Assembly (NCBI RefSeq): GCF_009914755.1
Contig: NC_060944.1
Length of the DNA stretch: 64,000 nt
Strand: one strand, 5' to 3'
Source: the human T2T-CHM13v2.0 reference genome, Homo sapiens
The notes below the pieces were generated by a model. The model searched no databases, had not been told where the DNA came from, and was given only the letters and a program-made list of their open reading frames with translations. Each line of letters opens with the position of its first letter. Positions within the stretch are counted from its first letter, which is position 1. Positions 61,874 through 63,656 of the stretch are shown here, in pieces. A program made the translations under genes and the position numbers.

Positions 61874-62211
61874 TCACAGAAAGACATTTAAAAACTAAGA
61901 TCACTGACAGCTGAAAAACACAAACTATAACTACAAAATGGGAAGAAATGATAAAAAATGATTAACATACCTAACCTATAAAAAGGTCATAAAGAATAAT
62001 TCAGAATCACTGATACACAAGTAGAAAAATTAGGCTAGTCAAACCAGAAAGAGAAGAGATGCAAGGAAAAACTTTAAGAATCAGTTTACAACAGAATAAA
62101 TGTCCCACAGAGCACATGGATGGGCCTGGAAGAGGGACAAGTAAAAAGTGATGAAGCTGAACTGAAGAGAATTACTATATAAAAGATAGGGACAGCAGGA
62201 AGTAACAGTAT
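61874..62211. repeat. Left arm of a ~338-bp inverted repeat
   Basis: Reverse complement of 63318-63656; 15 substitutions and 1 indel by manual alignment. Confidence 0.96.
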
Positions 62212-62739
62212 TTTAATACTAATTATTTTAAATTATTTAAGTATCTTAAATAATTTAAAACACTCTTTTTTTGGTATACTTGTTTATTTTACCCAAAAAC
62301 TCATGTATCTTGTAAAGAAGATGCTGATAACAACACGTGTATTACATATAAAATATATACAACAGCATATACTCTTCTTCCCAGCTTCTTTCCATTAGAA
62401 ATCATCTTGAAAGTCTCCAATTTGTTTTCAATGTAAAACTTCTTTTTAATGAACGCATAATAGTTGTACATATTTGTGGAGTACATAATGATGTTTTGAT
62501 ATATATATAAAAAATGTGTAGTGATTGATCAGAGTAATTAGCATATCCATCATCCCAAACATAAAAAAACTAGAAATCCTCTTTCAGTTTGTCTGTTTTA
62601 TAAATGAGGGTTTCCATATGTCTTGTTCACGTATGTGAGGTACACATGTTTCATCCATTTTCTCTGTCTTCTTTCTATGCTTGAGTGTATTTTTCAATCT
62701 GTTAAGAAATGGACTCAGTGGTGTGCATTTATTTTCTAG

Positions 62740-62871
62740 ATTGCTACGCTTTACATATGGTCCTTCATTTCCTGCATTTAAAGTTCCCGATGAAGATGCC
62801 AGTCTGATCCCTCCAGAAATGGATAATGAGTGTGTTGCACAGACATGGTTTCGCTTTTTACACATGTTAAG
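62740..62871 (+). CDS. RALGAPB: RALGAPB exon 6
   Basis: (R)[43 protein letters not shown]; ttttctag acceptor, AAG|GTATTG donor; 132 nt, phase 2 to 2. Confidence 0.95.
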
Positions 62872-63317
62872 GTATTGTTATTTTATTATTTCATGTGCCA
62901 TTTACCTAGTAAGTATCTTAGGGCAGGAATCATGCTGTAAGTCTCTTGTTTGAATTCAGAAGGTGGACACTAAGCCCCATTCATCAAATGGAATCCAGCT
63001 GGACAACAAGCACATTTCTGTCCTGTGCCTCCTGCTCTCCCCGTCCCAGCAGGGTTAGGCTGTCCTCAGCCGCTCTTGGTTTACACGCTCTAGGAACGCG
63101 TTCCCTGTGGTAGATGCCGCACTTGTTCTCTTGCCTGTTACTGCAGCCAGGCTGATGATCTTTCTCTTGGGATTTTGTCACATTCTGTGGGGACTGGAGG
63201 TTGCCTTGCTCCTCTCTGTGCCCAGCACTGACTGGTCAGTCTGCCTCTCAGAGCCCTCCTCCAATAGCCTGTTTAAAGTTTCAATGGGAGATACACCCTA
63301 AAATTTCACAGAGGGGT

Positions 63318-63656
63318 ATACTGCTACTTCCTGCTGTCCCTGTCTTTTATATAGTAATTCTCTTCAGTTCAGCTTCATCACTTTTTACTTGTCCCTCTTC
63401 CAGCCCCATCTGTGTGCTCTGTAGAACATTTATTCTGTTGTAAACTGATTCTTAAATTTTTTCCTTGCATATCTTCTCTTTCTGGTTTAACTAGCCTAAT
63501 TTTTCTATTTTGTGTATCAGTGATTCTGAATTACTCTTTATGACCTTTTTATAAGTTAGGTATGTTAATCTTTTTTTATCATTTCTTCCCATTTTGTAGT
63601 TACAGTTTGTGTTTTTCAGCTGTCAGTGATCTTAGTTTTTAAATGTCTTTCTGTGA
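63318..63656. repeat. Right arm of the inverted repeat
   Basis: Reverse complement of 61874-62211. Confidence 0.96.

What the first reader, a model, noticed from the sequence alone, without database searches (positions are those of the whole stretch)
61874..63656. Non-Alu ~338-bp inverted duplication that loops out RALGAPB exon 6
Seen: 61874-62211 is the reverse complement of 63318-63656 with 15 substitutions and 1 indel (~95%), including perfect runs of 61 and 53 bp. The arms are not Alu and match no repeat I recognise. They sit 528 nt upstream and 446 nt downstream of exon 6, the only exon in the 1.1-kb loop. In the pre-mRNA, 4 of the differences are G-U wobbles and 7 are A-C mismatches. 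Exon 6 is 132 nt and phase-symmetric, so skipping is in frame (44 aa lost), and a back-spliced circle would read TTA AG|A TTG with no stop and two internal AUGs. Established: complementary flanking introns promote back-splicing and exon skipping, long dsRNA is an ADAR substrate, and A-C mismatches are favoured editing sites. Inference: this stem is better paired than a typical Alu-Alu pair and could be a lineage-specific structural switch between full-length mRNA, a delta-exon-6 isoform and a circRNA. The left arm also holds a sense AATAAA (62095-62100) that pairing would mask.
Basis: partly seen in the sequence, partly recalled or inferred. Interest (0 to 1): 0.8.

Follow-up and report, generated by a model that had tools for sequence, protein, structure and literature searches.

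The report
Inverted duplication flanking RALGAPB exon 6
A 343-base stretch of intron occurs twice, in opposite orientations, on either side of one coding exon of the human RALGAPB gene; it is a real local duplication that should fold the unspliced RNA into a long double-stranded stem, but nothing yet shows that it changes splicing.

Summary
Bases 61869-62211 (intron 5) are the reverse complement of 63318-63662 (intron 6). There are 345 aligned columns, 15 substitutions, two 1-base gaps and 95.1% identity.

A search of the whole T2T genome finds only these two copies. The same tool finds thousands of copies of neighbouring old repeats. The arms are therefore a local inverted duplication, not two transposon insertions.

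Folding pairs 332 of 343 left-arm bases with the right arm (-535 kcal/mol), also in a 3.6-kb context.

The functional reading (splicing switch, exon-6 circle) is untested here and has points against it:
- The exon is only 132 nt.
- The substitutions show no bias towards keeping pairs (4 G-U against 7 A-C).
- RALGAPB was absent from the text copies of four papers' supplementary files. Three of these are circRNA papers and one is a long-dsRNA study.
- Only one circular read appeared in three gene-level files of a fifth paper.

Most likely this is a neutral, primate-lineage templated inverted insertion. It probably makes an intronic ADAR substrate with at most a minor effect on splicing. It is a new member of a known kind and of modest interest.

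The parts
61869..62211 (+). Left arm of the inverted duplication, in RALGAPB intron 5. It is A-rich on the sense strand and is probably the derived (inserted) copy.
   Evidence: 95.07% to the reverse complement of the right arm. (sharp ends). (A 0.48, T 0.18, G+C 0.33, between flanks with A about equal to T and G+C 0.18-0.22).
63318..63662 (+). Right arm of the inverted duplication, in intron 6. It is T-rich on the sense strand and is probably the source copy.
   Evidence: (T 0.49, A 0.19, the same composition as its outer flank 63663-63770: T 0.49, A 0.20).
62212..63317 (+). The 1106-nt loop enclosed by the predicted stem. It holds the end of intron 5, exon 6 and the start of intron 6.
   Evidence: the whole 1794 nt folds with 332 L:R pairs. 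(unique in the genome except for a repeat fragment of about 120 bp at 62435-62562).
62740..62871 (+). RALGAPB exon 6: 132 nt, phase-symmetric, codons about 247-291, and the only annotated exon in the loop.
   Evidence: Hub annotation. (length, frame, stop-free circular frame). (its 43 aa match residues 282-324 of PDB chain 9qwp_B, Ral GTPase-activating protein subunit beta, E 3.9e-25).
62095..62100 (+). Sense AATAAA inside the left arm.
   Evidence: It is the only one in 61000-64000, but 19 occur in the gene part of the window (0.5 per kb).
62226..62260 (.). Perfect AT-only palindrome (16-bp arms, 3-nt loop), 15 bases from the inner end of the left arm. It is a possible break or template-switch site.
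   Evidence: DNA fold -12.3 kcal/mol, z -6.0, 0 of 200 shuffles as good. (self inverted match, 91%).
61048..61438 (-). Two antisense Alu elements in intron 5, outside the left arm. They can pair with the sense AluY in intron 6 (window-equivalent 64292-64576, beyond the window end).
   Evidence: orientation, 73-83% to the AluY. (sub-threshold SRP-like matches on the - strand). (160 pairs with the AluY in the 3.6-kb fold).

Best explanation
SHOWN: a 343-bp segment is present exactly twice in the genome, in inverted orientation 1106 bp apart, in the introns on either side of RALGAPB exon 6. It is a local inverted duplication with sharp ends, no poly(A), no target-site duplication and no dispersed relatives.

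INFERRED:
(1) It arose by a templated insertion or template-switch repair event. The event copied the intron-6 segment in reverse into an AT-rich, palindrome-bearing tract of intron 5.
(2) At 4.5% divergence it is roughly 20 (15-45) million years old. It should therefore be shared by apes and perhaps absent from more distant primates.
(3) Since then it has drifted neutrally.
(4) In the pre-mRNA the two arms pair into a stem of about 332 bp, about 96.5% paired, that closes a 1.1-kb loop around exon 6.
(5) The main molecular consequence is a nuclear, intronic double-stranded RNA that ADAR enzymes edit, first at the 7 A-C mismatches (editing there would restore pairing).
(6) The effect on splicing is small: exon 6 stays essentially constitutive, with at most low-level skipping or a rare 132-nt circle. 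After normal splicing the two arms lie on two different lariats.
For: Two copies only: the 355-bp arm query gave 2 candidates, 2 scored, both the arms. The right arm plus flank gave 2 of 2. A 60-aa read-through peptide gave 3 candidates and 2 matches, both the arms.

Sensitivity control: a 120-bp repeat fragment in the loop drew 1902 candidates at 78-84% identity. Flanking Alus drew 11425 and 6883 candidates.

Boundaries and flanks: the ends are sharp and there is no further inverted homology in the flanks.

Direction of copying: the composition of the arms against their flanks, and the AT palindrome beside the left arm.

Neutral drift: differences are scattered as at random (longest run of 61 or more in 53% of 20,000 simulations, second run of 53 or more in 21%). 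Of 11 transitions, 4 keep a pair and 7 break it (one-sided binomial 0.27 by my arithmetic).

Stem: duplex -534.6 kcal/mol, with 332 of 343 left-arm bases paired to the right arm in the 1794-nt fold and in a 3621-nt fold that also holds competing Alus.

Editing context: 6 of the 7 adenosines opposite C have a non-G 5' neighbour (contexts, checked). The ADAR preference for such neighbours is recalled.

Small splicing effect: the exon is 132 nt, against the exon-length dependence in Liang & Wilusz 2014. The exon encodes part of the solved RalGAP beta chain. No paper in the library couples RALGAPB with A-to-I, hsa_circ or circRALGAPB.
Against: No RNA data of any kind were seen, so steps 4-6 rest on folding and on general knowledge.

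Inverted repeats of only 30-40 nt suffice for circularisation in minigenes (Liang & Wilusz abstract). This stem is closer to the exon and far better paired than the Alu pairs around it. A real effect on exon 6 is therefore quite possible.

The exon's donor (AAG|gtattg) departs from the consensus at +4 to +6 (consensus recalled), which would make it easier to skip.

The direction of copying rests on composition only. The age rests on recalled substitution rates and ignores gene conversion.

A very old repeat family with pairwise identity below about 75% could have escaped the genome search. RepeatMasker and Dfam were not available.

The negative supplement searches were run on text copies that may be truncated. 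I did not verify that those files list gene symbols.
Confidence: 0.6

Rival explanations
1. The stem is a lineage-specific structural switch that materially shifts RALGAPB output between full-length mRNA, an in-frame isoform lacking exon 6 (44 aa lost) and a 132-nt exon-6 circle. ADAR editing tunes the balance.
For: The stem is real and dominant in silico, lies 528 and 446 nt from the exon, and exceeds every Alu pair shown in the window. Short inverted repeats are sufficient for back-splicing. The exon is phase-symmetric and the circle has a stop-free frame with 2 AUG. The donor is not a consensus one.
Against: The exon is 132 nt, and exons of 400 nt or less circularised poorly in the vector tests. 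More stable hairpins and G-U distortions can inhibit circularisation. Substitutions show no bias towards keeping pairs. RALGAPB had 0 occurrences in the held supplement text of three circRNA papers and 1 circular read in one of three gene-level files of a fourth. No paper links RALGAPB to circRNA identifiers or to editing. The lost 44 aa lie in the solved protein chain, so a deletion isoform may not fold.
Confidence: 0.12
2. The two arms are independent insertions of one interspersed repeat family (LINE fragment, LTR or DNA transposon) that happen to lie in opposite orientations.
For: Most long, highly paired dsRNAs predicted in the human genome form between inverted LINEs (Andrews & Bass 2025, section read). 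By eye, one reading frame recalled LINE-1 ORF1.
Against: Only the two arms match in the genome search, with a working positive control. The two copies have identical end points. They are 95% identical, yet no third copy exists at about 78% or more. No TSD or poly(A) is present. Pfam gave 0 families in 6 read-through frames. A LINE-1 ORF1 from this genome gave a best tblastn E of 0.47, outside the arms, against 0.2 on a reversed decoy.
Confidence: 0.03
3. Two ancient, once-diverged inverted copies were kept similar by gene conversion, so the 5% divergence says nothing about age.
For: Close inverted repeats can convert each other (established in general; recalled).
Against: The differences are spread as expected at random, with no long identical tract beyond chance. 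The common sharp boundaries at both ends fit one copying event. Conversion needs high starting similarity.
Confidence: 0.05
4. The main significance is at the DNA level. The inverted repeat is a substrate for recombination that inverts the 1.1-kb segment with exon 6, or for hairpin or cruciform breakage, giving rare loss-of-function alleles.
For: The arms are 343 bp at 95% and only 1.1 kb apart. An AT palindrome adjoins the left arm.
Against: The longest perfect run is 61 bp, which is short for efficient homologous recombination in mammals (recalled). The orientation in this assembly is the functional one. No population data were seen.
Confidence: 0.05

Closest known systems
Inverted Alu pairs (reverse-complementary intronic sequences) flanking circularised or skipped exons
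   Same: There are complementary sequences in the two introns flanking an exon. They are predicted to bring the acceptor and donor of that exon together. They also make an ADAR substrate (Liang & Wilusz 2014, abstract and passages).
   Different: The arms are not a dispersed repeat; there are 2 copies in the genome. Pairing is 95% against 70-90% for the Alu pairs shown in this window. The enclosed exon is short (132 nt) and no circle is documented.
Mouse Sry locus: a single exon flanked by long genomic inverted repeats that drive its circularisation
   Same: A local genomic inverted duplication, rather than transposon copies, flanks one exon. Deleting either repeat abolished the Sry circle, as summarised in Liang & Wilusz 2014 (passage).
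   Different: The Sry repeats are far longer, and the Sry circle is a long single-exon transcript with experimental proof. Here the arms are 343 bp, the exon is an internal coding exon of 132 nt, and there is no experimental evidence.
Long, highly paired intramolecular dsRNAs of the human dsRNAscan catalogue (Andrews & Bass 2025, PMC11838218)
   Same: The stem is more than 300 bp and about 96.5% paired (664 of 688 arm bases). This just meets their class of >300 bp and >96% paired, which holds 2,018 of 5,134,754 predictions (section 10).
   Different: 88% of that class are intergenic and most are inverted LINEs. This one is genic, intronic and without dispersed relatives. RALGAPB is not named in the main text (0 occurrences). 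The tables and web resource were not seen, so I cannot say whether this stem is already listed.
Template-switch or templated-insertion mutations that create inverted copies of nearby sequence (recalled from the literature, not read here)
   Same: It is an inverted copy of nearby sequence with sharp ends and no transposon hallmarks, next to a hairpin-forming AT tract.
   Different: Described events are mostly tens of bases. This one is 343 bp copied over 1.1 kb, and the mechanism is inferred, not demonstrated.

Membership tests
Interspersed repeat pair (Alu, LINE, LTR, DNA transposon) | Many dispersed copies elsewhere in the genome | tested here: not met
   Searches found only the two arms. The control drew 1902 candidates for a 120-bp repeat fragment at 78-84%.
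Interspersed repeat pair (Alu, LINE, LTR, DNA transposon) | Insertion hallmarks: target-site duplication, poly(A) tail, or transposon protein remnants | tested here: not met
   Junctions show no TSD or poly(A). Pfam gave 0 families in 6 frames. LINE-1 ORF1 tblastn was no better than the decoy.
Interspersed repeat pair (Alu, LINE, LTR, DNA transposon) | Match to a curated repeat consensus (Dfam or RepeatMasker) | not testable with these tools
   No repeat library was on hand. The window file carries no soft-masking (0 lower-case letters).
Local inverted duplication or templated insertion | Exactly two copies, close together, in opposite orientation, with common sharp ends | tested here: met
Local inverted duplication or templated insertion | One copy absent at the orthologous site of an outgroup species | not testable with these tools
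   No other primate genome is held (one search states that G000 has no relatives here).
Intronic complementary sequences that promote back-splicing (circRNA biogenesis) | Inverted complementarity between the two introns flanking the exon, stronger than competing within-intron pairs | tested here: met
   (332 pairs kept in the 3.6-kb context). (Alu competitors at 70-90%).
Intronic complementary sequences that promote back-splicing (circRNA biogenesis) | An observed back-splice junction of the enclosed exon | tested here: inconclusive
   There were 0 occurrences of RALGAPB in the held supplement text of PMC6376117, PMC4165365 and PMC5660143. There was 1 circular read in one of three gene-level files of PMC3764148, with the exon not given. 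The files may be truncated, and circRNA databases were not available.
Intronic complementary sequences that promote back-splicing (circRNA biogenesis) | Exon length typical of single-exon circles (long exons) | tested here: not met
   The exon is 132 nt, against poor circularisation of exons of 400 nt or less in Liang & Wilusz 2014.
ADAR substrate or long highly paired dsRNA | More than 300 bp and more than 96% of bases paired | tested here: met
   332 pairs, so 664 of 688 arm bases (96.5%). This is borderline.
ADAR substrate or long highly paired dsRNA | Clustered A-to-G differences between RNA and DNA in both arms | not testable with these tools
   There are no RNA-seq or editing databases here. 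No paper pairs RALGAPB with A-to-I.

The most novel reading that the evidence does not exclude
An ape-lineage inverted duplication has turned a constitutive, structurally embedded coding exon of RALGAPB into a regulated cassette. When the 332-bp stem forms, exon 6 is looped out. It is then either skipped (a 44-aa in-frame deletion in the RalGAP beta subunit) or released as a 132-nt stop-free circle with two AUGs that could be translated round and round. ADAR editing at the seven A-C mismatches or helicase unwinding sets the balance. This would be a primate-specific, non-transposon RNA switch created in one mutational step.
Probability: 0.08. Interest if true: 0.6.

Novelty: new member of a known kind. 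Interest (0 to 1): 0.3.

Why it matters
Long, almost perfect double-stranded RNAs are rare in human genes. Only 2,018 of about 5.1 million predicted dsRNAs exceed 300 bp and 96% pairing, and 88% of those are intergenic (Andrews & Bass 2025). Nearly all known exon-flanking stems are built from Alu or LINE copies.

This stem comes from a single local duplication and encloses one coding exon of a broadly important GTPase regulator. That makes it a clean natural test of how much a strong flanking stem, on its own, changes exon inclusion, back-splicing and editing. There is one pair, no family members to compete, and a datable origin.

If it has no effect, that is also informative: a 343-bp, 95% stem within about 500 nt of a short exon would be shown to be tolerated. 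As it stands, it is a well-verified structural curiosity without functional evidence.

Tried and rejected
(1) LINE-1 ORF1 origin of the arms. This was a resemblance I saw by eye in one frame. It was not supported. Pfam on 6 read-through frames gave 0 families. A 60-aa peptide search of the genome gave only the arms. tblastn of an ORF1 taken from locus L075 gave a best E of 0.47 outside the arms, against 0.2 on a reversed decoy, and DNA matches were no better than E 0.009 on short A-rich stretches.

(2) Arms as part of the same element as the repeat fragment at 62435-62562. Sensitive blastn of both arms against the 65 other fetched loci (74 held, 9 of my own region excluded) gave nothing better than E 0.076.

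(3) A larger, decayed duplication. There is no inverted homology in the flanks beyond Alus and one low-complexity hit at E 0.035.

(4) Known RNA families. Rfam at E up to 1 gave 8 matches in 61000-64000, none in the arms and all below gathering score.

(5) Gene-conversion tracts. None is visible.

(6) Literature.
- RALGAPB with circRNA gave 6 papers. I saw the listing only; none is about a human RALGAPB circle by title or abstract.
- RALGAPB with A-to-I gave 0 papers.
- circRALGAPB variants gave 0 papers.
- RALGAPB with hsa_circ gave 0 papers.
- One badly designed search returned only generic circRNA reviews.
- The Barak 2020 supplements had 0 occurrences of RALGAPB.

(7) Tools that were closed. 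The search of earlier findings was not open. Paper reading closed, before a fifth circRNA catalogue could be checked. bioRxiv supplements, including the dsRNAscan tables, could not be seen.

Full report
OBSERVATION.
- The repeat finder reports two adjoining inverted pairs that together span 61861-62211 and 63318-63669 at 94%.
- BLAST of each arm against the window gives one partner only: 345 columns, 15 mismatches, 2 gap openings, 95.07%, E 1.5e-155. The next best hits are 15-21 bases long, at E 0.018 or worse.
- My alignment places the arms at 61869-62211 and 63318-63662. There are 15 substitutions (11 transitions, 4 transversions), single-base gaps opposite 63511 and 63657, and longest perfect runs of 61 and 53.
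- Read as sense-strand RNA, the differences are 7 A-C, 4 G-U and 4 other mismatches.
- The distances to exon 6 (528 and 446 nt), the AATAAA at 62095-62100, the 132-nt in-frame exon and the stop-free circular frame with two AUGs all check.
- The homology stops abruptly at both ends. The flanks share nothing else in inverted orientation apart from Alu elements and one low-complexity hit.

WHAT IT IS. The window's own genome (3.1 Gb, 24 contigs) could be searched.
- The 355-bp left-arm query drew 2 first-look candidates. Both were scored and both were the arms.
- The right arm with its outer flank again drew 2 of 2.
- A 60-residue peptide read through the stops drew 3 candidates and 2 matches, again the arms.
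- The tool is sensitive enough for this to mean something. A repeat fragment of about 120 bp inside the loop (62435-62562) drew 1902 candidates, with the 40 scored at 78-84% identity. The Alus in the flanks drew 11425 and 6883 candidates.

No third copy therefore exists at roughly 78% identity or better. Two copies that are 95% alike, share both end points, lie 1.1 kb apart and have no relatives form a local inverted duplication, not two insertions of a transposon. The junctions carry no poly(A) and no target-site duplication.

I could not run Dfam or RepeatMasker. The duplicated segment may itself descend from a very old, decayed repeat, but that would not change the conclusion about the 95% identity.

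A resemblance to LINE-1 ORF1 that I saw by eye did not survive testing. Rfam finds nothing in the arms.

ORIGIN AND AGE (inference). The right arm and its outer flank have the same unusual composition on the sense strand: T 0.49 and A 0.19-0.20. The left arm has A 0.48 and G+C 0.33. It sits between two flanks that resemble each other, with A about equal to T and G+C 0.18-0.22.

A perfect 16-bp AT palindrome lies 15 bases from its inner end (z -6.0). I therefore think the intron-6 copy is the source. The intron-5 copy would be a templated, inverted insertion into an AT-rich, hairpin-prone tract. This is a template-switch or break-repair event, a class I recall from the literature but did not read here.

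The Jukes-Cantor distance is 0.045. With recalled primate substitution rates, this is comparable to the divergence between human and a species that split some 15-45 million years ago. Both arms should then be present in apes. This ignores gene conversion. However, the differences are scattered as at random (longest run of 61 or more in 53% of 20,000 simulations), so no conversion tract is visible.

HOW IT SHOULD BEHAVE AS RNA.
- The two arms form a duplex of -534.6 kcal/mol.
- In the minimum-energy fold of the whole 1794-nt unit, 332 of 343 left-arm bases pair with the right arm. Either arm alone folds at only about -45 kcal/mol.
- The same 332 pairs persist in a 3621-nt fold. That fold includes two antisense Alus of intron 5 and the sense AluY of intron 6, which add an outer stem of 160 pairs.
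- The 25 longest of the window's 87 inverted pairs include the two halves of this repeat at 94%. The other 23 are 70-90% complementary.
- At 664 of 688 arm bases paired (96.5%), the stem just meets the 'long and highly paired' class of Andrews & Bass 2025 (>300 bp, >96%). That class holds 2,018 of 5,134,754 predictions, 88% of them intergenic and most between inverted LINEs (section 10 read).
- RALGAPB is not mentioned in their main text.

WHAT IT PROBABLY DOES. Nothing here measures RNA. From established knowledge, such a stem is a nuclear ADAR substrate. The seven adenosines opposite C are 61927, 61996, 62205, 63423, 63425, 63489 and 63554. Six of them have a non-G 5' neighbour. They are the expected first targets, and editing there would convert A-C into I-C and tighten the stem.

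For splicing, the evidence points both ways.

In favour of an effect:
- Inverted repeats of 30-40 nt are enough to circularise an exon in minigenes (Liang & Wilusz 2014, abstract).
- This stem is close to the exon.
- The donor AAG|gtattg is not a consensus one (consensus recalled).

Against an effect:
- The same paper reports that ZKSCAN1 exons of 400 nt or less circularised poorly or not at all. It also reports that greater hairpin stability or G-U distortions can inhibit circularisation (passages). Exon 6 is 132 nt.
- The 11 transitions split 4 pair-preserving to 7 pair-breaking, which is no better than the 1:1 expected without selection for pairing.
- The exon encodes residues that lie in the solved RalGAP beta chain 9qwp_B, so a 44-aa deletion is unlikely to be harmless.
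- RALGAPB did not occur in the held supplement text of three circRNA papers (PMC6376117, PMC4165365, PMC5660143). It had NA, 1 and NA circular reads in three gene-level files of Salzman 2013.
- No paper in the searched library couples RALGAPB with A-to-I, hsa_circ identifiers or circRALGAPB.

These negatives are weak. The supplement copies may be truncated, I did not verify their columns, paper reading closed before further catalogues could be checked, and circRNA and editing databases were not available.

One further point is worth noting. The arms lie in different introns, so normal splicing separates them onto two lariats. Only exon skipping would leave both arms and the exon on one excised molecule.

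The AATAAA in the left arm is one of 19 sense AATAAA in the 37.5 kb of the gene within the window and needs no special explanation.

VERDICT. The structural finding is confirmed and slightly sharpened. It is a 343-bp, two-copy, local inverted duplication around a constitutive coding exon, probably created by one templated-insertion event in the ape or catarrhine lineage and drifting neutrally since. The functional interpretation is a reasonable hypothesis of a known kind: complementary flanking introns, with the Sry locus as the nearest non-transposon precedent. It has no supporting data and several points against a strong effect.

My estimates are:
- about 0.6 that it is an edited but otherwise nearly silent intronic stem;
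- about 0.12 that it materially switches splicing;
- about 0.08 for the full, most novel version (a regulated cassette plus a translated circle).

It is a new member of a known kind, and its interest is modest until RNA data are consulted.

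Noticed in passing
window 62226-62260: A perfect AT-only palindrome (16-bp arms, 3-nt loop) lies 15 bases inside the inner end of the left arm. 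The DNA hairpin is -12.3 kcal/mol, z -6.0. It is a possible fragile or template-switch site linked to the origin of the duplication.
   Followed up: partly
L032:2921-3205 (window-equivalent 64292-64576, just beyond the window end): A very young sense-strand AluY lies in intron 6. It is 97-99% identical to the 39 other copies scored elsewhere in the genome and is flanked by what looks like a direct repeat, gaaaatcttttata. With the antisense Alus at 61048-61438 it forms a second, outer inverted pair around exon 6, with 160 pairs in the 3.6-kb fold.
   Followed up: partly
window 62435-62562: A fragment of about 120 bp of a high-copy interspersed repeat lies inside the loop, 180 nt upstream of exon 6. 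It drew 1902 genome candidates, with the 40 scored at 78-84%. By eye it resembles a LINE-1 3' end; that label is recalled and was not tested.
   Followed up: no
window 63768-63840: A (CA)n microsatellite is followed by a partial antisense Alu (63851-63967), about 100 nt outside the right arm. A TA/TG-rich tract lies just outside the left arm (61740-61868), but the two tracts show only a weak low-complexity match (E 0.035).
   Followed up: partly
window 61399-61458 and 61151-61204: There are sub-threshold Rfam matches to mir-3135 and mir-1268 inside the antisense Alus (42 and 34.8 bits against gathering scores of 80 and 83). These are almost certainly Alu-derived look-alikes, not genes.
   Followed up: no
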